Shown one piece after another: positions 1 to 16,632 of a DNA stretch of 64,000 bases. The notes under the pieces are model-generated. The model ran no database searches and had not been told where the DNA came from. It saw only the letters and a program-made list of their open reading frames with translations. Within the stretch, counting starts at the first letter, position 1; each line of letters opens with the position of its first letter. The position numbers were made by a program, and so were the translations under genes. Origin of the DNA: Macrostomum lignano (Eukaryota); contig NIVC01000234.1 in the NCBI GenBank assembly GCA_002269645.1, positions 62,001 through 126,000 on the forward strand. Direction: 5' to 3'.

Positions 1-636
1 AAAACTATAGATACTATATTATAGAATACAATATACAATACTATACTATGGATACAATACTATAGAATAAATAGAAAGACAAAACTATAACATGAAGTTC
101 ACTCAGATACTATATTGAAGAATAAGAACCAAGCTGAAATAGTGACTATATTCCAAGTCCAAATAAACTACTACGTAATAACAATTAATAAATAAACAAT
201 ATTAGTACTAAGCAATTATTCAAAGACTATAATGACGGGCAGCGAACTGAGCAAAAAGACGTGAAAGCAAATGATAGAACAAAGGTGAAGAATACAAAAT
301 ATTCAATTACGATTAAATGTGGTAATTGCGAGCGAAGTTAAAACGGTGCCTAGGCGTTCAGGTTGAGTTGGAAGAAGTATAGGCGACGTTTTTTAATCTT
401 AGACCGGTTTTAGAAATTGAATTAATTCTTAATTGTAATTTGACTATCATTTACCTACATTATTTTTACATTTAGTCTGCTTAACATTTGTTTTACTAAG
501 GACGTTAAAATGGCAGTTTAAGTCATTTTAAGTCACTCGAACGCACCCTAAAAATAAATAATCCGAAAATAACAAAAAAACTAATTTCTAAACAAATTGG
601 ATTATCTAGAAAACTTTATACAATTATACAACAGAA

Positions 637-975
637 TTGAATGACGGGATAATAATAAAGAGAAATGTTAAAACATCTTATAATCCACAAAAGTGTGAAT
701 ATTGTGAGGATTTTGTTGCAAAAAATGTTTCCGGATTAAAAGCATACCAACGTTCTAAACATTATACTGCAATAGCTCAGAACGCTCAGAACGCTCAGAT
801 CGCGCAGAACTCGCTGAGCACTAAGAGCGCTAATAGTACTAATAGAGCTCAAAAGTCGACAAAGCCCACAGGGCCGGTTATGAAGTATGAGTGTGAAAAT
901 GTGGTTTTGGTGCAAATTCATTCATTAAATATAGAACTCATATTTGTGATCCAACGGCCAGAACTTCTGGCATAG
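637..975 (+). CDS. Hypothetical protein with possible degenerate C2H2 zinc finger, within the Polinton
   Basis: CEYC-x12-(Y)QRSKH spacing resembles CxxC...HxxxxH with the first His lost; followed by AQN repeats. Confidence 0.35.
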   Translation: MNDGIIIKRNVKTSYNPQKCEYCEDFVAKNVSGLKAYQRSKHYTAIAQNAQNAQIAQNSLSTKSANSTNRAQKSTKPTGPVMKYECENVVLVQIHSLNIELIFVIQRPELLA

Positions 976-1168
976 CCCAAACAGTTGAAACGGCCAAAAC
1001 TGACGAGACGGTTGAGACGGTTGAGACGGTTGAGACAAAAGGCATAGCCGAAAGGGCATTTACTGAAAATGATTTAAATAATTTGGTAAATTTAACATAA
1101 ATTAAGTAATTAAAAATGAGTAGTTACTGGTGACGATTTAAAAAATATGTTAAAAAAATTATTAAAAA

Positions 1169-1381
1169 ATGGATCAAATCGTCGCGTATGTAGAAAAAGA
1201 TAAGGCGTTTAGAAAAGATGCAGTAGACGCTATTAACAAAGCACTTAGCACAAATTTAGTAACTAAAAATGAATTACTAAAACAAAACATTTATGATAGA
1301 AAAGCACTTGAATATGCAAGTAAAACAGTTGTAGATGTAATGGAAGAATATGAAATGGAGCTTGGTAAAAAGAAAATATAA
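1169..1381 (+). CDS. Small hypothetical helical protein within the Polinton
   Basis: 70-aa ATG ORF in AT-rich context, same strand as the protease; no motif recognised. Confidence 0.3.
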   Translation: MDQIVAYVEKDKAFRKDAVDAINKALSTNLVTKNELLKQNIYDRKALEYASKTVVDVMEEYEMELGKKKI

Positions 1382-1668
1382 TCGCACTCTTAAAAGAAAA
1401 CATAGGAGATGAAAAATTATATAAGGACATGGTAGATAGATATAAGGACATGGTCATAAACGCCAAATAGCTAATGCCGACCAAAATTGTATAGAGTACG
1501 ATTATCAGGACAACTACTAAACAGATTGAATAAATCAATTTGCGAAGAAAAGAAATCTGTGCCTGTAAAAAGGAATAGTTTTATCGTTATTTTTTTATTC
1601 TTTTTTATATTTATCTTTATAAAAGCATATCTTATCAAGTTTACTATCTAAAAAATCTTTGATTATAG

Positions 1669-2531
1669 TGTCACGTTATTGGCGTGGTGACTGTGACCCT
1701 CGAAGGGCCGTTTTGATGAAAATTACTGACGTTATTAGTTGCAGGTTCCCAAAAGGGCGGTGAACTCAACAATGGCGGAGTAGATTTTGTAGCGGTAGCA
1801 CTTGGCAAATCAGCGGCAAGATAAGTAAGAGCCGCAACTTGTTTATTGTAATTGTCAATATAAGTTACTACAGAGGCTATAGCTGTCGATATAGGTTACT
1901 ACAGAGGCTATAGCACGCGGGGGCACTGGCGGCTGCAACAATGGGTTTGAATTAAATAGGTTGAGCAGGATGATGAGCAGATTGATGAAGGTGACGCAAA
2001 TGGTAGCGCAATGGCGATGAGTATGCAGTGGTGGCAGCGAGTAGCAAGTAGACAAGTGGTGGCGTGATTGGGCGCTAGCCCGTGGCAGTACAAGGTGGAG
2101 CACGAATGCGTAAACAAGTCTGGCCCAGACAGGGTGGGGCCGTGGCGAGAGATAAGGAGGCACGAAGAAGGAACGCACAAACGGGAGAGGAGAGGCAGCC
2201 AGGAAGAGAGAAAAGAGAGAGCGCGCATACCCCCAGCCCGCCGCCAGGCGGGGTTAATAAAGGAGCGCAGGAGGGTTAGCATAATATATGCGGAGAGTTT
2301 TCATTGGCTGGCGGGGGAAAAGCGAGAACTGAAATTATTGATCGCGCGAGATCCTACAGACGTACGCAAAGCTTACAAAGTACGCAATGATTAGCAATTG
2401 CTACAGATTTGTTGGGCGCTACTACAAGTAAACGTGAGAATACACGATTGGAGAATATTAAATGAGAAATTGTAGTGAAATTGTAGTCCAACGGCCCTTT
2501 TGCGGGACCACTTTAAACTGACAACATCACA
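1669..2531. mobile_element. Solo LTR (863 bp) inserted in the Polinton
   Basis: Starts TGTCACG and ends CATCACA (imperfect inverted TG...CA ends). Flanked by ATAG at 1665-1668 and 2532-2535. Removing it restores a tandem of AATCTTTGATTATAG units. GC content is higher than the flanks. Confidence 0.75.
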
Positions 2532-2632
2532 ATAGAATCTTTGATTATAGAATCTTTATTATTAGAACCTTCTTTTTTCCATTTTTAAATAGCTGAAATT
2601 CACTTTAGTACTCGACTGTCAATTATTATAAA

Positions 2633-3147
2633 ATGGATTTGCCCGCAACGCCGGAGGCTCCGGAGGCGTCTCGCGCGCCGGAGGCAACCAGAGAAGCTCT
2701 AGAGTTCCAAGACTTACGCTATATCTTTGGGTCAGACACAAATACAAATTTTGACCTTTAGATGGGCTAAATATTTAAAAATAAAACTCTTTGTTTACGT
2801 TATGAGAGACGAAATAAAAAAATTAAAATTTCCTACGGGCCCTACGGGACCTAATATTCCTATGTTTATAATGACTAATATTCATACCTCAAAAGAAAGG
2901 GGTATGCACCATTCTGCAATTTATTATGATCCAATAGAAAAAATAAGTTATTGGTTTGATTCTTATGCACTTCCACCGCTACAAGAAGTTATAGACAAAT
3001 TTAAACACACCGATATTTTTATGGCGATGAAAAAGAACAAAGACAAAATATATTTAAAATTATAAATATTGCGGTCAAATGAGTTTATATTTTTTATATA
3101 GAGTATCAAAACGAGACAACATGGTAGAAGCATTAAGAAATATTTAA
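2633..3147 (+). pseudogene. Adenain-like (C5) cysteine protease of Polinton, frameshifted
   Basis: TNFDL...KYLKIK...VMRDEI N-terminus; GMHHSAIYYD...YWFDSYALPP (catalytic His/Asp region); in another frame from 3061 YKYCGQMSLYFLY (catalytic Cys). At least two frame disruptions. Confidence 0.85.
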
Positions 3148-3329
3148 TTGAAAAATATTTAACTGAAAAATATTTAATTGAGAAATATTTAATCGAAAAA
3201 TATTTGATATTACTTTTTTAAAGTTTTTACAGTTTTTGTTGTAAATTTACATTAGGTAAGTCCTAAACGCATTCTCATTTGATTTTTATTAAATTCTTTT
3301 TGCATTTTTTTCTTAGAGTTTTTCTTAGA

Positions 3330-4579
3330 GGAAATCAGTATCAAACATCCTATTTCACATTCTGGACAACAGTCTAGCATGCCTATTCAGCCTCCGCAGT
3401 GCCAAGCAATCTGGAGTGGCAAAGCTCTGTTTTGAATCCACCGGCGTGCTGCCTTTCATTAAAAGTGAGCAAACAATGTTGATAATCTTTTAAAAATGTT
3501 TTTCGTGCTTGGACAAGCATATTGGGCACTAAAGCACGTATTTATTATTGCGTTTTTGCAGACAAAACAATTTTACTCCCACAGACGTTATCTGGAGCTG
3601 TCACAAAAATGCAAAAGGTGAAGCGATAGAGTCTGCTGTCGCTGACCATCTCCACCACGCGGGCACCCGGCATCGAAGAAAAGTACAACGTCTTTCCACA
3701 CCCACTCGGCAGACAACGGTCCACCATCATGCTCAGCAGACTCCCGCCTTCCCTGGTGGCCAAGCTCCATCTAGCGACGAGGAAGACGAGGGCAACATGG
3801 GGGATGGCAGCGGCGACGATGATAGCGATAACAGCGGGGAAACTGACGTCATCGTTTCTTCTGGTGACATTCAACTTTTTTCTCTCTAAGTCTAAATTAA
3901 ACTAAAATAGCTTCCAGTTTGGACCCAGTTTGTCCCAGTTTGTCTGAACTATACCTTAAGTAGTGACTAAATTTATGAAGCTAATCGCATAACTAATTAG
4001 TAAGGACTAAGTTCCAGCATTTTTTCATGTACACCTATAATCTATAGTGCCAGAAGTCTCATAATCGGTTGCTTTTGCTCACCTATTTAATTTTTCTTCT
4101 CATACTATTGCTCTCCTGTTTCAGTAAATACACTGTACATCATTCAAAAACTTAACGAACCATTACGGAAATTGAAAAGGCATTGATATACTTTTTTCGA
4201 TGTTTGTTATTGTCTATGGCTTAAGAACTCGTATTTATTAACTCGTTATTTATGCTCCGGGTACTTCCACCTAATGCGGGAAAGTACGAAACAATTAGCC
4301 GCTGCGGATCATTAATGGAATTTTTGCATTAGGCAATCATACAAAATATATTCTTACAAATATAATACTGTATATAAGCCAACTAGCGAAGGTTGCACAA
4401 AGGTTGACTTTGGTTGATGTGTCAACGTTGACACCGCAACCGAGCAGGCACGTTGTTACGCGCGTCAAATGAGAGCTTCCTGCAACCATTGCACGTTGGT
4501 TGAGTGTCAACATTACTGCAACATTCCTGCAACCTAAATGGCACTAGGGGTTGTAACTGTGATATCTGTGCTACCCGGG
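3330..4579 (+). mobile_element. 3' fragment of a putative CACTA/EnSpm (CMC)-like DNA transposon
   Basis: Spliced ORF remnant (LACLFSLRSAKQSGVAKLCFESTGVLPFIK | intron GTGAGC...TTGCAG | ...AIESAVADHLHHAGTRHRRK) resembling DUF4806-type accessory proteins. Subterminal TGCAACC/GTTGAC repeats at 4380-4535. Terminus ...GTGCTACCCGGG at 4579. No matching left terminus found. Confidence 0.45.
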
Positions 4580-4894
4580 TTATCTGCAATCTATCTGCCC
4601 GTCGAAGAGCATCAATTTCAGTTTTATTATATACCCGATCCTTCGGATAGACTTCAGTTTTCGGATAAACTTCGTCTTTCGAATAAACTTCGCTTTTCGA
4701 ATAAACTTCGTCTTTCTAATAGACTTCGTCTTTCGAATAAACTTCGTCTTTCTAATAGACTTCGTCTTTCGAATAGGCTTCAGATTTTTTATAATATCTA
4801 TTGTCAGTTTTTGATATGCTTCTATTATTTGCTGCAGACAACGCAGAACAAAATCTATTTGGTGTATTTTGAAATGCCATTGTATGAGTGCCAT
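4580..4894 (-). CDS. Basic repeat protein (IRKTK(F/S))n, possible DNA-condensing core protein
   Basis: About seven 18-bp repeats encoding Arg/Lys-rich hexapeptides, immediately downstream of the penton gene. Confidence 0.35.
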   Translation of the reverse strand: MALIQWHFKIHQIDFVLRCLQQIIEAYQKLTIDIIKNLKPIRKTKSIRKTKFIRKTKSIRKTKFIRKAKFIRKTKFIRKLKSIRRIGYIIKLKLMLFDGQIDCR

Positions 4895-4942
4895 TTTATG
4901 AGCTCCATTTTATGAGCGCCATTTTATGAGCGTATATATTTA

Positions 4943-5749
4943 TTATATTTGTCGTACGTGAATGCTTAGGAAAATTTCTTCTCCACTAAAATCAAAAGGA
5001 ATTCCAGATTTGTCTTCAATTGTAAAGTTTAAATTATTAATTTGCGAATTCAACAAAGGATAATATACCGGTTCTCTGGGGGAGAAAATTATCTTACTTC
5101 CCATAGGTACTGAATATGCGGGGAATGAAAATAGTATTTGCTTTCGAATAAGGTATCGTTCATTGTTGTTGTTGGCATAACCTTCACTAATATTTGAAGA
5201 TCGAATGTAAATTACGCTTCTACCCCCATCAATTTTTGCGGCATGTGGAGCACGAGTATATGTTCCACTATATTGTTGAGAATCAAGTCCTAAGAGCTTT
5301 AAAAAATTATTAGGATTAGTTTCATCATTAAAATCAACTATTGCACCTGGTTTCAAATTAAGTTCTACTTTTCCTGTGGCTAGATGAGGTGTAAAAATGT
5401 CTTTGTCAACGCCCCAAGGGGTTTGAGCGCCGACTGTTTCGGCTAATCTTTTTATTTCTTCAGACAGCATTGATATTTCCCAAGAACCTGGTTCAATTTG
5501 AATTGTCTTAAATTCACGGCCTCTATTTACAGATAACAGAATATCTAAAATTATTATTACTTTTAGTTATATTTTTTATTATATCATAAACAGAAAATTT
5601 CTTCAGAGCCATTTCATATTTTAATTCTGGGTCTAAAACTAATGGTGTCGGTTAAGTCATATTAATAGGGTTTTCTTTTGTACAGATATCAAAAGTAACA
5701 TTAATTTTTTTGAAATGTGGTTTACTATTTTTTCTAAATTCCTTTCCAT
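4943..5749 (-). pseudogene. Minor capsid protein (penton-like); N-terminal part disrupted
   Basis: C-terminal ORF 4943-5470 has ILFSFPAYSVPMGSKIIFSPREPVYYPL...FTIEDKSGIPFDFSGEEIFLSIHVRQI, typical of Polinton minor capsid. Upstream frames give MERNLEKIVNH...PLVLDPELKYEMAL...IEPGSWEI. Confidence 0.8.
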
Positions 5750-6331
5750 TTATTATAAATTATTTTTTATACTCTATACTCCTGTATGACCAGGTGCTTT
5801 TGCTAGCAGTAAAGTCCAAAGCCTATTAGCGCTATGCGTGCGCGCGTCTCGAGCGTTAAGTCGTCTGTCGCCCCAATGCCCTACACCATCACCACTATGC
5901 TCGCTTAAAGCACTTTGAGCGCTTGAGCGCTCTGTGCGCTTTGAGCGCTTTGAGCGCCTTGAACGCTCTGTGCGCTTTGAGGCTATGTGCGCTCTGCGTG
6001 CGTTGAGCGCTATGTGCGCTCTGCGTGCGTTGAACGCTCAAAGCGCTCAATTTTGCTTGTTTGTAATTTCCTGTGCTTTTAGCTGCTCCTACATGAGTCT
6101 CATCTATAGTTTTTTAATAATTTTCTAGCGCTTCCTTACTAAATTTCTGAAATTCATTTCCATGTTCTTTTACTATTTTATGAGATGATTATTCTTTTAA
6201 TTCTTTTGTGAACGGGAATGTTTTTCCACGCCTTTTAAATAGTGTGCCGTCAATTACTTCTACACTTATACCACCCAAAGTAAAATTTCCGTCTTTATCT
6301 TTTTTTAATCGAATAGATGGTGCTGGTCTTT

Positions 6332-6565
6332 TCAATCGGCATAATTTTGCATTTTTTCATACATTCTTTCAAGCTCTTTATTCTTTTTTTGAGTTTTTGT
6401 TAATTCGTCTAATTTTTGTGTAATAGGCGCTTGAAGTTTTGATTGTTCGTCATATAATCCAAGCTGTTGAAGTTTATAGGCAGATCTTCTGTCATTATAT
6501 TCTTCTCTAGCTTTTGAAAGCCTCTCTAAACTTTGCTTATATTGCTCTATCTCATTCAAAGTCAT
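6332..6565 (-). CDS. Coiled-coil hypothetical Polinton protein downstream of ATPase (truncated; remnant continues toward ~6100)
   Basis: Helical E/K/Q-rich ORF with QAPITQKLDEL motif, in the position following the ATPase. Confidence 0.4.
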   Translation of the reverse strand: MTLNEIEQYKQSLERLSKAREEYNDRRSAYKLQQLGLYDEQSKLQAPITQKLDELTKTQKKNKELERMYEKMQNYAD

Positions 6566-6569
6566 TTTA

Positions 6570-6733
6570 AAATAAGGAAAATCATTGTACTCATCTATAT
6601 AGAATTTATTAGGAAAAACATCATTTGCTTCTACATATTTAGTATCTTTAGTCGTAAAGAATAAATTTCCATATTTTTTTACTCCATGCGTCTTTACATA
6701 TTTTTATAAAATCTTCTTTACTACAGTTTGGAG
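6570..6733 (-). pseudogene. Packaging ATPase, C-terminal piece (split by Gypsy insertion)
   Basis: Joining across the GGAG duplication restores IYNKLSP|NCSKEDFIKICKDAWSKK followed by a frameshifted YG motif. Confidence 0.75.
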
Positions 6734-7135
6734 TGTAGCGTGTCTGAAAAATAAATGAGGCTTGAAAGCGGTGGTTCAATTATTTATTATCGATAATCGA
6801 GATTACCGGAAAAACACTTGCTTATTAGCTGGGTTTGCCTGGTGTATATTTATAGCAAAATTAACGGTGTTCTAGAAATTTCTTTAGAATTATAACAAAG
6901 ATACAACATTATATTGTAAACTGTAGCTAATACGGATAAATGCGTTGAATAAGAATATGGCTAATAATTAAACTATAAGATATGTAAAGGTTCCGCGTAG
7001 AAATATTTTGTTATGGAAATTCAAAGAAAAATGCAGAAATTTCTTTTACTTAATTTGGAAATTTTACTCGTATAGACTGCGCGAAGGGGAAAGGAAACTT
7101 CTAGAAACTAGGTACATTGGAATAACATTGCAACA
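6734..7135 (-). repeat. 3' LTR of the Gypsy element (402 bp)
   Basis: Minus strand starts TGTTGC just after the PPT and ends GCTACA next to the TSD; AATAAA at ~6783-6788 on the minus strand. Confidence 0.85.
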
Positions 7136-7140
7136 ATAGT

Positions 7141-7150
7141 CCCCCCCACC
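7141..7150 (-). other. Polypurine tract
   Basis: GGTGGGGGGG on the minus strand, 5 nt before the LTR start. Confidence 0.85.
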
Positions 7151-7305
7151 GGAGACGGAGTCCCTAGATAGAATGATGATCGCACAGTATGTACAAATTA
7201 ATGACCGAATGGGCTATATACACTGAAGATGTCGACGGTCGGGTCCAAAGTCTTTAACGAATGGATAGCAAGATGCGACTATAATACAGATGAGGTCAGG
7301 TGATG

Positions 7306-10300
7306 TCAGAAGTAAAGGTAGTCATCTTGGGCTTTAAATCGGACGCGTCGTCCACTTCTTGTTCGGGTCGTCGGTGCCTCCTCGTCGACTTTCGGTGTAT
7401 TCGCTGTAGTGGATGTTGGTGTGGCCTCCGTGTCGTCCTGGTGTCCTGCTGGTGTAGAGGTTTCCTCCTGCCCTGAAGTCGGCTGTACGGTCTGCCTAGG
7501 CCTGCTCTGTGTCGGTGGCCTTGGGGTCGACCTGCAGGGTTTGAGCCTGTCGATGGAGATGGCTTCTTCGTGACCAGGGCGGAACTCGATGATGAAAAAC
7601 TTGGGAGTGCGCCGAATGACTGGGTATGGTCCGGAGTACGGCGCTTCCAACGGCTTCCTCACCCTGTCCACGCGGACCCAAACCTTGTCGGTCGACCATA
7701 GCTCCTGAGGCACATGCGGTGTGGTGGACGGCATTCTTGGTCGCTGCTCCAAGAGGTGGTCTAAGCTCATCTGAATGGAGTTAGGATCTTTGTCGCTGAC
7801 GATGACCCGTGGAAGCATCGGATGCTCGCCGGTGAGCCTGGTAAATGGGCTGATGCCTGAATCGTCCGGAGCGACATGCATGGCGAGGAGTGCCAATGGG
7901 AGGTTGTCGAGCCATGCAGGACCGCGCGCCTTAAGCATCGTCTTCAGAGTCCTGTGGGCGCGCTCGATCTTACCGTTGCACTGTGGGTGGTACGCCGTGG
8001 TGCGTAGGCGGTGAAAACCCACGGTGGACGAGAGTGTCTCGAAGAGCTCGGACTCGAACTGTGGTCCTCTATCAGTGATGACGTACAGGGGCACTCCGAA
8101 GCGAGAAATCCAGGAAGCGATGAAGGCTGCTCCCACGCTTTGTGCTGTGACGGTCTCGAGGGGTGCGGCCTCTAGCCAGCCCGTGTTGCGGTCAATCATG
8201 GTAAGGAGATACCGAGGTGTAAGACCGCACTGAGTATCATGATTCCTTTCGTGAACTGGAAGAGGGCCGACGATGTCGATGTGTACCGTCTCGAACCTGT
8301 TGGATGGGAGGTTGAAGGCAGCGCTGCCGGTCGTCGTGTGGCGGTCTATCTTGGTGCGCTGACAAACCTCGCATGACCTGCAAAAGACCTTGATCTCTGC
8401 GCGCATGCCGGTCCAGTAGTAGCGGCTGATGATCAGGTTGGCGGTCCTGCGGAATCCGTAGTGACCGAGTTCGTGAAAATGTTTCAGCAGTGATTCACGC
8501 ATGGAGATGGGGACGACCGGGCGAGGGTAACCCGTGGAGGTCTCGCAGAGTACGCGACGGCCGTCTCCAAGTGGAAAGAAGCGGCAATGGTCTGATTCGG
8601 AGAGGTTGTCGGCGGCTTGCTGATCGGCGATTGCTGACAGGTCAGTTGGCGCTGCTCCCTACTGGATGGCTGCGATGGCGGTCGGTTCGTCGAGTCTGGA
8701 AAGTGCATCGGCGACGACGTTGTCCGAGCCACGGATATATTGAAAGTCGGTGACGTACTCAGACAGGATGCTCATGTAGCGCTGGTTGCGGTCGGAGTTG
8801 CCGTGGGAGTTGTGTCGGAATGCCTGCTCGAGAGGCTTGTGATCTGTGAAGACCGTGACGTGCCTGCCCTCGATCAGGTTCCGGAAGTGAAGCACGGCAA
8901 GGTAAGCGGCTAGTAGCTCTCGATCAAATGCTGAATAGGCTCGCTGGGCGGCAGAGAGCTTCTTGCTGAACATGCCGGTCAAGGTGGTCTGCTCTCCGAC
9001 TGTCTGATGCAATGCGGCTCCGACGCTGGTAGCAGAGGCATCCGTGACCAGCTGATAGGCCGAGCAGTCTGGATCGGGGTGGTACAGCAGGAGACGCTCG
9101 GCGAGCTTCTTCTTGAGGTCGTCGAATGCGGCTTGGGGGATGTCGCTCCATTGGTAGGATCGAGGAGACCGTAGTGCTGCGGTGAGCAGATCCTGCAATG
9201 GGGCTGCGGTGGATGCGAAACCGGAGATGAAACGTCGGTAGAAACCGATCACGCCGAGGAAACGTCGCAGGGCAGCAGCGTCGCGGGGAACCGGCCAGTT
9301 TTTGATGGTCTCGACCCTCGTTTCGAGAGGTCGGATTCCGTCGGCGGAAACGTGGTGGCCGAGAAAGGTGACTTCGCTCTTAAGGAAAACACACTTGCTG
9401 AGCTGAACCTTCAAGCCGTGATGAGCTAGGCGGGTCAACACGGCTTCTAGATGTTGGAGATGCTCCTCCTCCGACCTCGAGTAGACCAGAAGGTCATCCA
9501 AGTAGGCGATGACGCAAGGCAGGCCGCGCAGGACGGAGTCGATGAAGCGCTGGAAGGTCTGCGCGGCGTTGCGAAGTCCGAATGGCATCCTAGTCCACTC
9601 AAAGAGGCCAAACGGCGTGATGATGGCAGTCTTGGCGATGTCCTCTTCCGCGATGGGGATCTGATGGTAAGCGCGAACCAGATCGAGCTTGCTGAACACC
9701 GTCGCGCCATGGAGATAACGCGTGAAACTCTGGATGTGTGGGACCGGGTAGCTGTCTGGCTTGGTAGCGCTGTTGAGCGCTCGGTAGTCGCCACACGGTC
9801 GCCACTTGCCAGATGGTTTGCCGTCTGATTTCTTCGGAACCATGTGGAGTGGCGAAGCCCATGAACTCTTGGATGGACGGATGTACCCGGCATCGATGAG
9901 TTGCTGGAATTCTTCGCGAGCGATGCGAAGTTTCTCCGGATGAAGCTGACGCGCTCTGGCGTGCACTGGCTGATGTCCGCCGGTGTCGATCCTATGAACA
10001 GTGTCGTGCTTGATCACGTCCGCCGGCGGCAGCCGACTTCCCTCCACGTAGGTAAAGGTATCCTGAAATCGGTCGATCAGCCGCCTGACGCGTGGATCGC
10101 AGTCGTCGGGGTAGTTCGGAGTGACGCTGAAGTTGCCGATGGTCGTCGTAGTGACGGGCAGCGGTGGAGTATGGTGGAGTACCAGCTGTCGAGCTTTGCA
10201 GTCGACCAAGAGACCGAAATGCGACAGAAAATCGTAGCCGAGGATGGGGTGAACGACGGAGGCCACTATGAAAGTCCATCGATAGGCGCGACGCAGTCCT

Positions 10301-10557
10301 TTAATGGCGACTTCCAGGGAGATTTCGCCGACAACAGGAATGGTCTCACCTGTGGCGGTGGTTAATCGGAATCCTGTTGCCTGGACGTTATGGGATAAGT
10401 ACTGCGGTGGGATGATAGATGCTGCAGCGCCAGTATCGACCAGGAACGGTAGGCGACGCGCGTCAAAGAGGAGGTCGACGACGAGACAAGGTTTGCGCGC
10501 CGCTTCGTCTGTGGCACTGCTCACTGCGGCGTCATGGGTAGTGCCTGGAAGTTTCCC
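7306..10557 (-). CDS. pol: Gypsy Pol (protease, RT, RNase H, integrase), reached by -1 frameshift; one in-frame TAG at 8659-8661
   Basis: [11 protein letters not shown] (protease); [30 protein letters not shown] (RT); [25 protein letters not shown] (RNase H); HELGH...CEVC zinc finger, [29 protein letters not shown] (integrase). The frame is continuous through the TAG (AIQ*GAAPTDL...). Confidence 0.95.
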
Positions 10558-11426
10558 TGGGCCGGACGTTCTGGCGAGTTCGAGCGGGATTGCACCGGAG
10601 TCCTCTCGTTGGGACCTAGGATGCGAGGCTGACGACCGCCGGATGAGCGCGGGAACTGGCACCAGCGTCTGCATGTGCGTGTTCGCGCACCGTAGTAGAG
10701 ATGTCCTCTGCAGACTACTGGTTTTTGGCCTGGGTAGAAGGGTTCCATGCTGGATGTCAGCTGTGACTTCTGCCGTGGCCCCGATGTCTTTGAGTCGCCT
10801 GCCGTACTCTGAACTGCGTGGACGCGGTGGCCAGATGACTGCTGAATAGCCAGCATGGAGTCCGCGATGGAAGCGAGCCGTGCTGGATCTTCGTCCTGAA
10901 AACCGGACAGATGAAGGCGTAGCTCTGCCGGGAGGCAGCGGAGAAGCGTGGCCTTGACCATGTCTGGGTTCTCCTTGATATTGCATTGAGCCATCTTGGC
11001 CTGCAGCCGCTGTATGAAGATGCTGGGTTTGTCTCCTCCCAGGTCAGAGACGCTCATGACCTCGTTAATTCGCTCTTGCTGACTCTTCTGAAGCATCTTC
11101 AGTACGGCTTGCTTCAGTGCGGTATAGTTGGACGGAGTGTCCACAGACAATAAAACAGCTGCGATATCCTCCGGTAGATGACAGATCAGGTGGTTGAACC
11201 GCGTTACCTCGGAGGTGATGTTTCGAAGGTCGAACTGAGCGTCCAACATCCGAAACCATGCATCGGGGTTGCCACGACAGAATGGCGGTACTTTAAGGGC
11301 TACCGCAGCTACCGCAGGCGGGTCGGCAGGTGCCGCCGCGACACTCGCTCCTTGTGTGGGCTGCTGGCTGACCCCGGAGGGCTGCTGGCTGACCACGGAT
11401 GGTGTGTTGGTGCTTCCTTCCGCCAT
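10521..11426 (-). CDS. gag: Gypsy Gag
   Basis: [22 protein letters not shown]...LGGDKPS...[18 protein letters not shown], typical of invertebrate Gypsy gag; ATG at 11426. Confidence 0.9.
10551..10557 (-). promoter_or_regulatory. -1 ribosomal frameshift slippery site G GGA AAC
   Basis: In gag frame CAG GGA AAC; the -1 frame (GGG AAA CTT) is the open pol frame. Confidence 0.8.
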
Positions 11427-11484
11427 TGGATCGTACACGCTGAATGAATTGAATGGTCTGAATTAAATGCTAGTCAATTGGACG

Positions 11485-11497
11485 CCTCACCGGACCA
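11485..11497 (-). promoter_or_regulatory. Primer-binding site TGGTCCGGTGAGG
   Basis: Begins TGG, ~60 nt upstream of gag. The complement TCACCGG-A-CCA fits a tRNA acceptor with C1:G72 and A73 (Tyr-like; inference). Confidence 0.7.
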
Positions 11498-12167
11498 GGA
11501 GAAAGTTTGTTATAAATTTTTGGTAGGTCTTCATTCATTATCTTGTTTAAATATATTATAGCATGTTGCATTTTCTCTAATACTATTTTTATATCAATTA
11601 ATAAAGATTGAGATAAATAAAATATTGGTCCTATTCTTCTTCCCATGGTAAACATAGATTTTTAAAATTCTTGATTCTTTTGAGATATTACGTCATCCAT
11701 TATTATACGTGTCGAAGCGCGAGACGCCGTCGAAGCCGCCCCAAGGGGCCCAAGGTGCTTATCTAGGGGTGAAGAAGTTAATATTACCTCAACAGGGCGA
11801 TTAAGTGTTTTTTGAAGTTTGGCGGATTCTTCTAGAAAATCTTCTACTTCTGATTTTATTTTTAGGCGCTTATATGCATGGTATAAATCATTTATTACGT
11901 TAGGTAGAATTCCTTTTTCAAAGCCATGTTTAAGGAATTGATACTCTAAATCATATTTAGTCATTTCTGGTACAAAACAAATTATTTTATTAAATTTTAT
12001 ATATTCAGGATATTGCGTTAATAAATTAAACAGCATGTCTTTCCCGCTGATGATTTTCCTATTACACAGCAAAGTAAGGGGTCTGGAAACAGAGTGCCAT
12101 GGGCGCCGTGGGTCTTATGGGATTCTCCGGATAGAGCCCTACGGGAACCTCCGGTTAAAGTGTCCAT
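11498..12167 (-). pseudogene. FtsK/A32-like packaging ATPase, N-terminal and central part
   Basis: HGTLFPDPLLCCVIGKSSAGKT (Walker A), RIIMDD (Walker B), FTMGRR...FYLSQS (arginine finger/sensor); frameshift and stops present. Confidence 0.9.
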
Positions 12168-12268
12168 TTTTTATAAATAATTATTCTACTCGATCTACTT
12201 GATCTAATCGATCTACTTGATCTAATCGATCTATTTTACTCGAAAAATTTTATTATCTTGAACTTTAA

Positions 12269-13594
12269 TTATATTTTTTTTCTCTCAAGAATAACACCAT
12301 ATGCCACTAATTCAGCTCCAGTAGATTTTCTGAGAGTAAGATTAATTATAACCCCGGTTTGAACTAATTCGTCTTGTGCCGTTAAATCAAAACAGAAAAT
12401 TGAATAATTATCTTTCCAGTCTAATTTGTTTATTGAAGGGAGTGTGCCCATCTCATAACATGTTTTTTCATACATATCATACGCTGCTTCTACATTCTGT
12501 TCTGTTGGTTTAATTCTTACAGGGTTTAGAGGATATCTTGTTTGATTTAGTGAAAGATAAATCTCTTCTATTTCTACTGCTTCTGCCGCAGTTTTATAAG
12601 AATAATATTTCATATTGTTAGTTTGAAAACTTAGGTTATTAATTTGAAAGCCAACAAAAACTTAAAGCGGCATGCTTTTTAAATTTGCCATCTGCCACGT
12701 ATAATTTTGTGGTGTAATTGTTAAGGGGCCTACTGTAACTCTTTCTGGATAATGTACTGTTATATCACTTTTTAGTTTGTTCATAAAAGCTACTTCAGCG
12801 GTTGGAGAAAGTGTAACAGACGGCACCCAAATTTCAAAACTGTTTATTTCTGGTTTTGTATCTGTACCTTCACCCCCAAAAAATATTTCACTATCATTCC
12901 GTGTTCTTGTCCAATCAAACCTGTAAGAAATTTCTTTAGTAACTTTGTCCCAATCAAAAAACAAAATTAAAGGAGTAAGAGCTAATTTAATATTAACCTC
13001 CTCGTTTTGTACCGCGCGTACCTTCCGTACCAGTTGTAATGTTATTATAATTTTCAAGTCTTCTTAAATATCCCGTGTTTAAATCTCTCTTATTTGCTTT
13101 TGATACAAGAGATGTGGTTGCATTTCTAAGCCCCTCTTCTCCGGCCGCAGGTCCTGGTATATTAGTTACTATACCTCCATCTCCAGTATCTGGAATCCAT
13201 CTATAAGCCTCTCTTACTTCTTTTTCTAGAATTTTGAAAATAGAATAGATTTTAATATTGTATCTGCTTCTCCCGGACTAGTGTATGATTTTTGCATTTC
13301 TCCGATTGTCACAGTCAACTGTGAAAATATTCTCATAGGCCAGTTATGTTCAAGAGTTATATTTGCATTTAAATCATCACGCCCATTTTCTTTTGTTATT
13401 GAGTACTTTATTACTCCAAATGCTTGGGACATTAAAATATATGAATCCGTAGAATTAATTTCATGAACAATCTAGCCGCCATTAAGATTTTGCGCTGTTT
13501 CTGTTGTTGGAGAAATTGTTATATAATCTTTTTTCTTTCTAAAGAAATTATATTTGTTATTGCTATCTTCGATATTTAAAATATTATCGTCCAT
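12269..13594 (-). pseudogene. Major capsid protein (hexon-like), fragmented
   Basis: Fragments: MDDNILNIED...ISPTTETAQNLNGG; SPGEADTILKSIL...RWIPDTG; FEIWVPSVTL...YTWQM; TRYPLNP...YDMY...YSIFCFDLTAQDE. Order and motifs match Polinton MCP. Confidence 0.85.
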
Positions 13595-13870
13595 CCTTTG
13601 CTATTTTGCTTTGCTATTTTGCTATTTTTTAAAGAAAAATTTAATTATTTACCTATTTAATTATTTAATTATTTACCTATTTAATTATTTCATTATTTAC
13701 CTATTGAATTATTTAATTATTTACATATTTAATTATTTAATTATTTACCTATTTAATTAGTTAGTCAACCTCGGACATAAAATCAGACCATTACCACCTT
13801 TAGCTTCAGAGAAATATTAAAATACTTACTTAATTAAGAAATAAATGCTCCAGGATTTTCCTTAACATTG

Positions 13871-14218
13871 CTATTTTGCTATTTTATTTTCAGCATGCTC
13901 TGCCGCCATTTCGGCTGTGTCTTTTATTATTCCTTCGCCTCTGATAGCTTTAAGTTTTTCTTTTTCTATGTTTTCTAAATTTTCTTCATGTTTCTTTGTG
14001 TTTACACTATCTGCAATTTTAGCCACACCTGCAGCAACACCGCCGGACGCACCGACAACTCCTGCTATTATTGGAATTAGTGCAGCTAATGGTAGAATTC
14101 CGCTGGATTTCTCAATATTAGAGTTTTTTATATCATTTATTTTCTTTTGAGATAGGTAATATATTTTTCCTTTATACTTAAAGTGCTTAGGGGTTTCTTC
14201 TCTTATATATTTATTCAC
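13871..14218 (-). CDS. Putative membrane-active virion core protein
   Basis: Basic N-terminus, hydrophobic/Gly-Ala segment GILPLAALIPIIAGVVGASGGVAAGVAKIA, and IRGE/G, which matches the adenain consensus (M/L/I)xGx-G. Confidence 0.6.
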   Translation of the reverse strand: MNKYIREETPKHFKYKGKIYYLSQKKINDIKNSNIEKSSGILPLAALIPIIAGVVGASGGVAAGVAKIADSVNTKKHEENLENIEKEKLKAIRGEGIIKDTAEMAAEHAENKIAK

Positions 14219-14540
14219 TCTTTCTTCTACTTTATCTTGGGGCCCTTTGGGCTTTTTCGGTACCCCCTTGGGTTTTTTTCGGTACCCCTTGGGTTTTTTC
14301 GGTACCTTTTTCAGTACCCCTTTGGGCCCTTTGTGCTTTTTTGGTACCCCCTTGGGCCCTTTGGTTTCAATTCCATTACCTTTTCTAGTTTGTATAACCC
14401 CTTGGACTTCTTGGGCCCCTTAGGCCGCTCTCTTAGCGTCTTTCTTAGTTTCCTCTTCTTCTTTTAACTGGGCCGCGGCTAAATTTTGTCTTCGATTTTT
14501 TAAAATTCATTATATTCTTCATTCGCTTTCTTTGCTTCTG

Positions 14541-14777
14541 CTACAGCTTTTTTAGCATCATAAACATCTTAGCGGCTAATCCAACTTGTCCTATGGCTTG
14601 TGCGACTGAAGTTAGCGCCGGCCCATAATTTGTAATTTCTGAAATAGCGCTGTCGACAATTCGCTCAAGGCCATACCCTCGGGCTCCGCCGGCTTCGCCG
14701 TAATTATAACTCATTCTTATTTTTCCTAGCTCCCTATGTTTATTAATGTATTTTCCATTTGCGTTTAAAGACATCAT
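14541..14777 (-). CDS. Putative virion core protein (pVII-like position)
   Basis: KYINKHRELGKIRMSYNY...ARGYGL motif followed by an amphipathic helix. Confidence 0.5.
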   Translation of the reverse strand: MMSLNANGKYINKHRELGKIRMSYNYGEAGGARGYGLERIVDSAISEITNYGPALTSVAQAIGQVGLAAKMFMMLKKL

Positions 14778-14842
14778 CGTTCGATATTTGTCTCTTTTTT
14801 AATAAAAAAATTTACACGTCTTTGCTAAGCGCTCTAAGTGCT

Positions 14843-16014
14843 CTAGGCTTTTAAAAGCTGTTCTTTATAAAAACTACCTATAATTTCTTCACCATCTTCG
14901 GCTTCTAAAATATATGTAATATTTGTAGTTTCTAATATTTTTTCACTATAAACACTTCTGAAATTTTCCAATACACTTTTCTTCCTTTTTCAAATTTATC
15001 TTTAAATTTATAAATGTGTACTCTGTCTCCTACTTTTATATTACTTGGATCAGACGCCGAAACTGCCAGAGCCCCTTGGGGCGCTGGAGGCCTCGGAGCC
15101 CCTTGGGGCTGTCCTTTGGATGCTTCCGCCGGTGTGCAACCAATTGAGGAATGTACTGTATGATCTTATATTCATCGACAGTTGGCTGTAGAATTTTGAG
15201 CCATTTCTGATTTCCTTGCAAGTCAAATTTAAACCATAGTTTATTGGTTAGTGTTCTATTAAATCTTTCAATCAGCATTCTTAGACTCACCATAGATTGA
15301 ATACATTTTATTTATATAAATTACTTTTTCGTCTTTTGAATACGGATAGAGTTTATACATGTATTGATTGTAAAATTATTTGCCCTCGTCAACACATAAA
15401 CGAACTGAACGACGGCCTGATTTTTTATATATAGTTTCAAACGCTTCAGCTACTTTTTCTCCTTTCTTTGACTTTAAAGGAACAACAACCCATGCAAAAC
15501 GCGTGAAGCCGTCTAAAACTGTTAAAATATATTTGAAGGTTCTTTCTGGAGGCATAACAACTAAATTGGCATGCCATATTTCGTCTTTGTAACGGTGCAC
15601 AAATTTTCTAAATACTTTGGGTTTACGATATGGGGTGTGCTTTTTTATGGCTTCTTCCAAAGAAAGGGCGGCGGAGCCACTGCTACGCACCCCCAGCCCA
15701 ACTTTAACTTTTGCTTGTATTATTCTTTTTACCATATGTCGCGTTAGGCGCTCTTTTATAGCTAAGTCTTCTGTGGGAATCGCGTCTAACTCTTGCAACA
15801 TCTGTTGGTCAGCTATGTGTTTTTGGTCTAAATTTCCTGCGTCCCTATAACGTTTATCGTGTCGATATGCCGCCCAGTCTATAAGGTTTATAGGGAGGCT
15901 ATCGGGTTGCGGTGTATCAGTCTGAGGGTTTAGTCTTAGCGTTAAATTTGTGCCGGGGCCTGCAAAAGAATAACCGGGTATGTAGCAATATTTAGAATAA
16001 TACAGTGAATACAA
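14843..16014 (-). pseudogene. Parvovirus-VP1-type phospholipase A2 fused in frame to retroviral-like (rve) integrase; integrase disrupted
   Basis: PLA2: IPGYSFAGPG, AAYRHDKRY, ADQQM. Integrase: IWHANLVVM (first catalytic D mutated to N), YILTVLDGFTRFAW, VDEGK*, IERFNRTL, HSSIGCTPAEA, KVGDRVHI, GEEIIGSFYKEQL. Confidence 0.9.
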
Positions 16015-16519
16015 TACTTACGGCGTCTACAGTATCTCCTTCCAAAATTGTGAGTTCTGAGCTAAGACTTCGGGTATCTTTGACAGATGCCGATGAATCT
16101 CTCCGATGGGGAGACTGCCATATTTTAATTTTTGAGACTCAGCCGGCCGTGTTAGCTCGCTGTGTTAGCTTTCTTTATATACGTCATGCGTTTTACAGCT
16201 CACATAAAAACAGCTGTTACCCTGCAACAGAAGGGATTGTACGAGCCGTAAATGCGTAAGCGCGTAAATGCGTACGCGCGTGAGTGTGGGAATATTGCAA
16301 GTTGCCATTGTTTTTTTACTATTTTCGCTGAGCGCGGTGTGTCAACTTATTTTTGGCTTATTTTTAACATACCACTTTTTTTAAACAATTTTTTTAGCTA
16401 CTGGCAATTAGCAAAACGATTGACTCGGGTGGGCCTACGTGCCTACGTGGCCTAGGAGCCCTACGGGCCTACGTGCCTAGGAGAGTTAGGAGGGTTAGTA
16501 GTAATTAGAGGTGGGCTCT

Positions 16520-16632
16520 AGTAGTAGACGGAAGCTTATAGAAAAAAATAGGGCATCCCTTGAATGAGCGAAGCGGTAGCGAGTGAATGAGAAGGATGCC
16601 CTATTTTGTCCTATAAGCTTCCGTCTACTACT
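16520..16632. repeat. Terminal 113-bp hairpin of the Polinton
   Basis: Arms AGTAGTAGACGGAAGCTTATAG(A/G)A(A/C)AAAATAGGGCATCC, ~39 bp with 2 mismatches; ~35-nt loop containing GAGCGAAGCG. Confidence 0.9.

What the first reader, a model, noticed from the sequence alone, without database searches (positions are those of the whole stretch)
1..16632. Endogenous adintovirus/Polinton-like virus with a complete virion-morphogenesis module
Seen: remnants of protease, penton, ATPase, hexon-like capsid, two to three core/membrane proteins, PLA2 and integrase within 16.6 kb, plus an ACTACT terminus. Known: this gene set defines Polinton/Maverick elements and adintoviruses. Inference: the very AT-rich, divergent proteins point to a lineage that may be poorly described if the host is a free-living flatworm. 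This copy is dead, but intact relatives may exist in the genome.
Basis: partly seen in the sequence, partly recalled or inferred. Interest (0 to 1): 0.72.

Follow-up and report, generated by a model that had tools for sequence, protein, structure and literature searches.

The report
Dead flatworm Polinton with hairpin end
This is a broken copy of a known kind of virus-like jumping gene (a Polinton) in what is very likely a flatworm genome; its membrane-cutting enzyme is fused to its integrase, and its tip folds back on itself, likely as part of how the ends are copied.

Summary
Window 551-16632 is the right-hand part of a decayed Maverick/Polinton carrying protease, minor capsid, ATPase, major capsid, two core genes and integrase; every gene tested is broken, and about 44% of 1-16632 is nested foreign DNA. 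Its polymerase remnant lies upstream; the left end is lost. Relatives with open capsid frames exist in G000; a database names a near-identical capsid as Macrostomum lignano. Three refinements. (1) PLA2 and integrase are one reading frame, as in 101 of 120 database hits examined; I found no paper describing this. (2) The last 113 nt form a fold-back. One sister subfamily has 100-nt fold-backs of unrelated sequence at both ends, always in one orientation (32 against 0 inverted), which argues against simple hairpin transfer; another subfamily with the same capsid has none. A 2026 preprint reports terminal palindromes in protist elements, and this scan noted such an end earlier on other DNA of this genome. 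(3) This copy has a different polymerase class from its sisters and lacks their group I intron and GGNCC purge, also noted earlier by the scan. Verdict: new variant of a known kind, moderate interest.

The parts
1..550 (.). Inserted DNA: right arm of a TIR element (549-bp arms, 99.8% alike, TAA on both sides), likely Harbinger-type (type recalled). It separates the window from the element's broken PF03175-type polymerase gene, which lies upstream, outside the window (G000:C234:57094-59395, + strand)
   Evidence: Insertion; very high depth. Polymerase: Pfam PF03175 E 7e-16, 4e-12, 2e-7 on three pieces; 5 stops and 3 frameshifts; Vsr-like insert; composition like the capsid genes
610..1500 (+). 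Unassigned accessory-gene remnants of the element
   Evidence: ORFs; no Pfam match above cut-off; single-copy depth
1750..2540 (.). Inserted high-copy repeat (limits approximate)
   Evidence: depth more than 100 times that of the element in X3
2693..3144 (+). Adenain-type maturation protease, frameshifted
   Evidence: a profile of 6 homologs finds adenain at E 6e-8; the window piece scores E 3e-11 on a profile built without it
3330..4560 (.). Inserted mid-copy repeat (limits approximate)
   Evidence: depth about 4-5 times that of the element
4605..4880 (-). Remnant of the N-terminal part of a gene whose sister homolog carries an F5/8 sugar-binding domain
4946..5749 (-). Likely minor capsid (penton) gene, broken
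   Evidence: fold test inconclusive (best hit a PBCV-1 chain at E 0.16)
6054..6544 (-). Remnant of a conserved 243-aa gene of unknown function
   Evidence: no Pfam match for the sister protein
6647..6733 (-). 3' part of the packaging ATPase gene
   Evidence: short, weak alignment, 17 columns
6734..11497 (-). Inserted Gypsy-type LTR retrotransposon inside the ATPase gene; one LTR only (6734-7137), 4-bp duplication at the junctions
   Evidence: Pfam RT, RNase H, protease, integrase; junctions and single LTR; other copies carry an LTR before the primer site (table 5c)
11498..12116 (-). 5' part of the A32-type packaging ATPase gene, broken
   Evidence: Walker A in the window piece; sister protein PF04665 above cut-off
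12261..13585 (-). Double jelly-roll major capsid gene, 2 stops and 3 frameshifts
   Evidence: fold shown on the 58%-identical sister protein
13772..14239 (-). Core-type gene with a hydrophobic Gly/Ala stretch and G-x-G motifs, broken
   Evidence: weak Adeno_PX match E 0.22
14366..14678 (-). Second core-type gene, broken
14846..16074 (-). Fused PLA2-integrase gene, intron-less, broken in the integrase part
   Evidence: one open frame 15379-16017 holds both Pfam matches
16520..16632 (.). Right terminus: 113-nt fold-back, AGTAGT at the inner arm, ACTACT at the end; minisatellite follows
   Evidence: spanned without differences by contigs of two other studies

Best explanation
This is a dead, single-copy Maverick/Polinton whose ancestor likely copied itself with a protein-primed polymerase, inserted with a retrovirus-type integrase and would have packaged its DNA in a double jelly-roll capsid. 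Shown: gene set, breaks, PLA2-integrase fusion, terminal fold-back, different polymerase class from the sisters. Inferred: (a) the fused PLA2-integrase is a virion polyprotein that the element's protease cuts at the conserved G-x-G linker, so that one gene puts both an entry lipase and the integrase into the particle; (b) the fold-back pairs the 3' tip of a single-stranded end with an inverted copy about 100 nt inside and so recreates, on one end alone, the short duplex origin on which terminal-protein priming starts; it belongs to an exchangeable end-plus-replication module and is not needed by every member of this capsid lineage. Identity as a Maverick about 0.97; step (a) about 0.5; step (b) about 0.4.
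For: Identity; sister ends show AGT repeats and 12 flank pairs fitting 6-bp duplications among 39 distinct flanks, chance about 0.3. Step (a): 101 of the 120 listed hits hold both domains, PLA2 first in 100, the HDxxY catalytic motif in 90, a [KR]-hydrophobic-G-x-G linker in 81 against 3 such motifs in 26,523 integrase residues; like motifs occur in the core proteins. Step (b): window and sister stems share only the first 8 bases yet both pair perfectly over 22-25 bp; 41 of 47 sister ends have a perfect 25-bp stem; AGT repeats, linked to protein-primed jump-back in PMC8097293 (passage), are kept on both arms; orientation is fixed, 32 matches to the normal form and 0 to the inverted form, 47 of 47 ends read in one orientation.
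Against: Subfamily B has a 99-100% identical capsid, 29 matched ends and no fold-back in the four ends examined, so the structure is dispensable for mobility. No compensatory changes were shown within a family. No free genomes, particles or protein products were seen. The left end of this copy is lost, so its fold-back is called terminal by analogy with the sisters. The PLA2 profile was built from 35 of the same sequences (precomputed Pfam shows both families for about 82 of 120 by my count). Cleavage at G-x-G rests on a recalled resemblance to the adenovirus protease site. Pattern scans of viral contigs found no Polinton with such an end (0 of 80 and 0 of 80 loci examined).
Confidence: 0.6

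Rival explanations
1. The fold-back primes DNA synthesis from its own 3' end, as in parvoviruses or poxviruses, and is resolved in a way that keeps one orientation.
For: This model is proposed for terminal palindromes of protist virophages and PLVs (10.64898/2026.07.28.741278, passages). In G000 the fold-back goes with a primase-helicase gene in 4 of 5 subfamily A copies examined and is absent from subfamily B, where 0 of 2 left arms show that gene. A single orientation is recalled for one parvovirus end, so absence of inversion is not a full exclusion.
Against: 0 inverted loops against 32 normal ones; no nicking enzyme among the 23 ORFs scanned; pPolB and AGT repeats are retained.
Confidence: 0.2
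2. The fold-back is a by-product: a template switch near the end once copied the tip inward, and it is inherited without function.
For: Subfamily B moves without it; capsid-less pPolB elements in G000 and two TIR-bounded viral contigs also lack it (0 of 6 ends).
Against: Two lineages with 58% capsid identity and unrelated stem sequences both keep a perfect stem of like size; decay would be expected.
Confidence: 0.25
3. The inner inverted copy is a second binding site for the integrase in duplex DNA and never folds.
For: Subterminal repeats that bind transposase are common in DNA transposons (own knowledge).
Against: Subfamily B has a close integrase homolog and no such copy; a binding site would not need a perfect 22-25 bp match.
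Confidence: 0.1
4. The upstream polymerase belongs to a separate capsid-less pPolB element, so the polymerase swap is only apparent.
For: G000 holds about 100 matches to this polymerase class; five examined lie in stretches with no capsid or integrase hit; a TIR insertion separates the gene from the window.
Against: GC3 is 0.21-0.25 as in the window's capsid genes, against 0.63-0.67 in those elements; a 9-mer occurs once in the polymerase and 7 times in the rest of the element but 0 times in the flanks and other elements tested; no element end lies between them.
Confidence: 0.1

Closest known systems
Group 2 Maverick-Polintons (Polintoviricetes), as described in 10.64898/2026.06.19.733378 (passages)
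   Same: pPolB, rve integrase, cysteine protease, A32 ATPase, two capsid genes; phospholipase common; variable replication module with primase-helicases
   Different: Passages seen do not mention PLA2 fused to integrase, hairpin ends or flatworm members; group assignment here is by gene content, not by a labelled tree
Alpha adintoviruses (PMC8502044, sections 3.1-3.2 and part of 3.3 read)
   Same: pfam03175-class PolB, adenain, integrase, FtsK-type ATPase, PLA2, swaps between polymerase and virion modules
   Different: There PLA2 is joined to a pX-like domain (PLA2X); here it is the N-terminal part of the integrase gene. Sisters pair this virion module with EndoVII-bearing polymerases that match pfam03175 poorly
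Nematode and mollusc Polintons with pPolB2-VSR (PMC10748475, passages)
   Same: Polymerase replacement under a constant capsid; Vsr-like insert in the polymerase
   Different: Relationship to that clade was not tested on a tree; the words hairpin and PLA2 do not occur in that text
Halocafeteria virophages and PLV subtype 4 with terminal palindromes (10.64898/2026.07.28.741278, passages)
   Same: Palindrome inside the TIR next to the target-site duplication, tied to certain replication modules
   Different: Protist host; mostly non-pPolB elements; 52-nt palindromes screened with a gap of at most 10; no orientation test in the passages seen. Here an animal element with pPolB, a 35-50 nt loop and one fixed orientation
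Spodoptera Mavericks with a PLA2 capsid-like gene (PMC5803895, passages)
   Same: Parvovirus-type PLA2 with catalytic residues kept; EndoVII match in the polymerase
   Different: PLA2 and integrase are separate ORFs there

Membership tests
Maverick/Polinton (Polintoviricetes) | [quoted passage not shown] | tested here: met
   Broken PF03175-type gene upstream of the window; linked to the element by composition
Maverick/Polinton (Polintoviricetes) | Retrovirus-type (rve) integrase | tested here: met
   Window piece E 5e-4; 64% to a sister protein above the Pfam cut-off
Maverick/Polinton (Polintoviricetes) | Double jelly-roll major capsid protein | tested here: met
   Sister protein model pLDDT 92.8; best PDB matches iridovirus, mavirus, PBCV-1 and Sputnik capsids, E down to 2e-14; window 58% identical over 432 columns
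Maverick/Polinton (Polintoviricetes) | Single jelly-roll minor capsid protein | tested here: inconclusive
   Homologs sit beside capsid genes in related contigs; PDB profile search gave only E 0.16; no fold was predicted
Maverick/Polinton (Polintoviricetes) | A32/FtsK packaging ATPase | tested here: met
   Sister protein PF04665 above cut-off; window 44% identical, Walker A present
Maverick/Polinton (Polintoviricetes) | Adenain-type protease | tested here: met
   Profile hits adenain E 6e-8; His, Asp and Cys motifs in the window pieces
Maverick/Polinton (Polintoviricetes) | (AGT)2//(ACT)2 end motif | tested here: met
   Right end at 16632; motif described in PMC8097293
Maverick/Polinton (Polintoviricetes) | Paired TIRs and 6-bp target-site duplication | tested here: inconclusive
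   Left end of this copy not found, consistent with truncation; met in sisters: 590-bp TIRs, duplication in 5 of 10 same-contig pairs and 12 flank pairs overall
Alpha adintovirus (PMC8502044) | pfam03175-class PolB | tested here: met
Alpha adintovirus (PMC8502044) | N-terminal OTU domain of PolB | not testable with these tools
   That part of the gene is lost in this copy
Alpha adintovirus (PMC8502044) | PLA2X gene (PLA2 plus pX-like tail) | tested here: not met
   PLA2 runs in frame into the integrase; the pX-like stretch is in a separate core gene
Alpha adintovirus (PMC8502044) | Hexon clusters with the Mayetiola reference | not tested
   No labelled reference capsids were available; the tree has unnamed rows only
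Polinton-like viruses of protists | pPolB and rve often replaced by polymerase-helicase fusions and tyrosine recombinase | tested here: not met
   pPolB and rve are present; definition
Hairpin-transfer (flip/flop) replicons | Two loop orientations at the ends | tested here: not met
   0 inverted against 32 normal matches in the sister family; integrated copies only

The most novel reading that the evidence does not exclude
A widespread, undescribed lineage of animal Mavericks packages its integrase as a PLA2-integrase polyprotein and swaps whole end-plus-replication modules under one capsid; one module type uses a self-folding tip as a cis origin for protein priming, a mode of end copying not described for these viruses. 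The window copy is the outgroup that predates the sisters' intron-nuclease invasion and their loss of GGNCC sites.
Probability: 0.3. Interest if true: 0.7.

Novelty: new variant of a known kind. Interest (0 to 1): 0.42.

Why it matters
How Polintons copy their ends and get their integrase into a new cell is still inferred, not shown. This genome holds copies with one capsid but different ends and polymerases, with and without a fold-back, which makes the hairpin-priming idea of a 2026 preprint testable in an animal host; the fixed orientation already speaks against its simplest form. The window copy itself is an ordinary fossil, useful mainly as an outgroup.

Tried and rejected
Single-sequence fold of the capsid failed (pLDDT 30.9); the aligned fold worked. 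Left TIR: none found by DNA search, pattern search or local alignment upstream. Breaks as assembly errors: rejected where contigs of other studies match without gaps. Fold-back as a microRNA: Rfam MIR8670 at 38 bits against a cut-off of 150, chance for any hairpin. Fold-back as a tiny separate transposon: unlikely, since in sisters it is the outer part of both TIRs with the duplication outside. Group I intron in this copy: none. Generality outside this genome: two pattern scans of viral contigs gave 110 and at least 120 stretches, 80 examined from each; the one true stem was the end of an RNA-phage-like contig; four related contigs with long inverted repeats had other ends; short-read contigs often break at such ends, so this is weak. 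An 80-nt hairpin at L068:5973-6051 could not be tied to an element end. Expression: no RNA holder listed; runs guessed to be RNA cover scattered pieces at low depth, no evidence either way. A read-level look at sister ends was not obtained, so orientation rests on the assembly. Atlas look-ups for minor capsid and protease gave no result. Kapitonov and Jurka 2006 was not held, so its text on termini is unseen. The careful tree did not finish; the quick tree is used. Dating: no TIR pair and no LTR pair, so no date.
Full report
What is there. Window 551-16632 is the right part of a decayed Maverick/Polinton. Comparison with natural open frames from related copies in G000 placed protease, minor capsid, a 243-aa unknown, ATPase, major capsid, two core-type genes and PLA2-integrase. 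All 11 gene parts aligned carry stops or frameshifts, 19 and 20 in total. Four insertions fill about 7.3 of the 16.6 kb: a TIR element at 1-550, two repeats, and a Gypsy element inside the ATPase gene. Contigs from runs of two other studies match the capsid, integrase and terminal stretches without differences, at single-copy depth, so the decay is real there.

Fold and family tests. The window's own pieces are too broken for most profiles. The 58%-identical capsid of a related copy, folded with 118 sequences, gave pLDDT 92.8 and matched iridovirus, mavirus, PBCV-1 and Sputnik capsids and a MELD virus protein. A protease profile of 6 sequences found adenain at E 6e-8. The sister ATPase passes the Pox_A32 cut-off. 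The minor capsid fold stayed unconfirmed.

Left part. Upstream of the window (G000:C234:57094-59395) lies a broken PF03175-type polymerase with a Vsr-like insert. Its GC3 of 0.21-0.25 and a shared 9-mer tie it to this element, not to the GC-rich capsid-less pPolB elements of G000. Its N-terminal part and the left terminus are lost; no second copy of the right end was found in the assembly at the sensitivity used.

Relatives and host. A 133-aa capsid piece found 51 other matches among 137 candidates scored, none above 56%; 21 have an open frame of 460-466 aa. A source names a 99%-identical sister capsid as Macrostomum lignano; the next database relatives are 63% and 46%. In a quick tree of 65 rows, chosen from the hits plus 6 contig proteins, the window, two sisters and one unnamed protein form a 100-supported clade; there were no labelled references. 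Searches for Macrostomum with Polinton or Maverick gave 1 and 2 papers, none on the topic by listing; Polintons are known as piRNA targets in planarians (PMC8532177, passages).

One capsid, several replication modules. Subfamily A has 590-bp TIRs, an EndoVII-bearing polymerase and, in 4 of 5 copies examined, a primase-helicase; subfamily B has 900-bp TIRs, a second EndoVII-bearing polymerase and no primase-helicase hit in 2 of 2 left arms; their capsids are 99-100% identical in most copies compared. The window copy has the other polymerase class, with no significant match to a sister polymerase. Such swaps are known (PMC8502044 sections read; PMC10748475 and 10.64898/2026.06.19.733378 passages; end-module turnover in PMC11296320 passages).

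PLA2-integrase fusion. One open frame of the window holds both domains, and an uninterrupted sister gene does too. Of 354 hits, 120 were listed; 101 hold both domains, 90 keep HDxxY, and 81 have a [KR]-hydrophobic-G-x-G linker against 3 such motifs in 26,523 integrase residues. Most are unnamed contig proteins. Two paper searches (12 and 6 papers) and passages of PMC8502044, PMC3671162, PMC5803895, PMC11296320, PMC12220804 and the 2026 framework preprint, plus a blank word look-up in PMC11131425, showed PLA2 as a separate or pX-linked gene, or did not mention it; supplementary genome maps were not seen and may show the fusion. I infer a polyprotein cut by the element's protease; the site resemblance is recalled.

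Fold-back end. Bases 16520-16632 fold into a 22-bp perfect stem extended to about 36 bp (z -12.6). Subfamily A has a 99-100 nt fold-back at both ends, directly inside the 6-bp duplication; 41 of 47 ends have a perfect 25-bp stem; the two families share only the first 8 bases. All 47 ends read in one orientation, but they were selected by likeness to that form; the symmetric test is the pattern search, 32 normal and 0 inverted. Against a required role: four subfamily B ends have no fold-back and that end matches 29 places, and 0 of 6 other pPolB element ends tested have one. Precedent: terminal palindromes in Halocafeteria virophages and PLVs, with a hairpin-priming model and a call for wider study (10.64898/2026.07.28.741278, passages). 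Two searches (25 of 201 and 23 of 23 listed) and word look-ups in PMC8097293, PMC8502044, PMC10748475, PMC11071308 and PMC6431247 showed no such report for animal Mavericks; the 2006 founding paper was not available. Earlier AI notes of this scan describe a similar end in this genome and in another; they are not independent support.

Intron and site purge. Earlier notes pointed to group I introns in the sisters' PLA2 gene. I confirmed introns in 2 of 5 loci scanned and 0 GGNCC sites in three nuclease-bearing copies, about 62 expected; subfamily B stretches are also poor in them, 0-2 per stretch. The window copy has no intron, keeps the site at the same codons, and has 30 GGNCC sites in 14.7 kb, about 19 expected, part of them in inserts and short repeats. 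It therefore likely split off before that invasion.

Verdict. The identity is secure and the gene set is textbook. The fusion, the fold-back with fixed orientation and the outgroup position make it a new variant of a known kind. Mechanisms for the fusion and the fold-back are inferred and untested. Interest 0.42.

Noticed in passing
window 6734-11497: The Gypsy insertion starts at its primer-binding site, has only the 3' LTR, yet shows a 4-bp duplication; other copies carry the 5' LTR. It may come from integration of an aberrant one-LTR cDNA.
   Followed up: partly
L020:5398-5781, L023:2261-2621: Group I introns (RF00028, 89 and 83 bits) split the PLA2 gene of subfamily A around an Eco47II-like gene (2 of 5 loci scanned); three nuclease-bearing copies have 0 GGNCC sites in 55 kb against about 62 expected. 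Noted earlier by this scan.
   Followed up: yes
G000:C67, C4094, C4788 against C2232: The cassette of primase-helicase, polymerase and a 246-aa gene lies in opposite orientations in near-identical subfamily A copies.
   Followed up: no
L448:9215-L450:4336; L465:7199-L466:5954: TIR elements of 15 and 8.8 kb with a pPolB, no capsid or integrase hit, ends starting ACT, and 6-bp duplications. Noted earlier by this scan.
   Followed up: partly
G000: Many copies of one pPolB family share a TAG stop inside the matched stretch; shared inactivation, readthrough or an alignment edge effect was not examined.
   Followed up: no
sister ends: Several matching 6-bp duplication partners lie on different contigs, which points to mis-joins through the repeat or recombination between copies.
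   Followed up: no
L018:4445-8260: A further Polinton (EndoVII-type pPolB and protease, open frames) lies directly before a subfamily A end; likely a nested insertion.
   Followed up: no
L016:136-3093; L017:7125-7568: A 986-aa single open frame with only a weak ARM/TPR match, and an AMP deaminase exon, upstream of the element.
   Followed up: no
window 16633-64000: Dense minisatellite arrays throughout; the element's right end abuts a 16/33-bp array.
   Followed up: no
L264:3884-3973: A perfect 30-bp stem with AGT ends at the tip of an RNA-phage-like contig (maturation, coat and replicase recognised by eye); unrelated to Polintons.
   Followed up: partly
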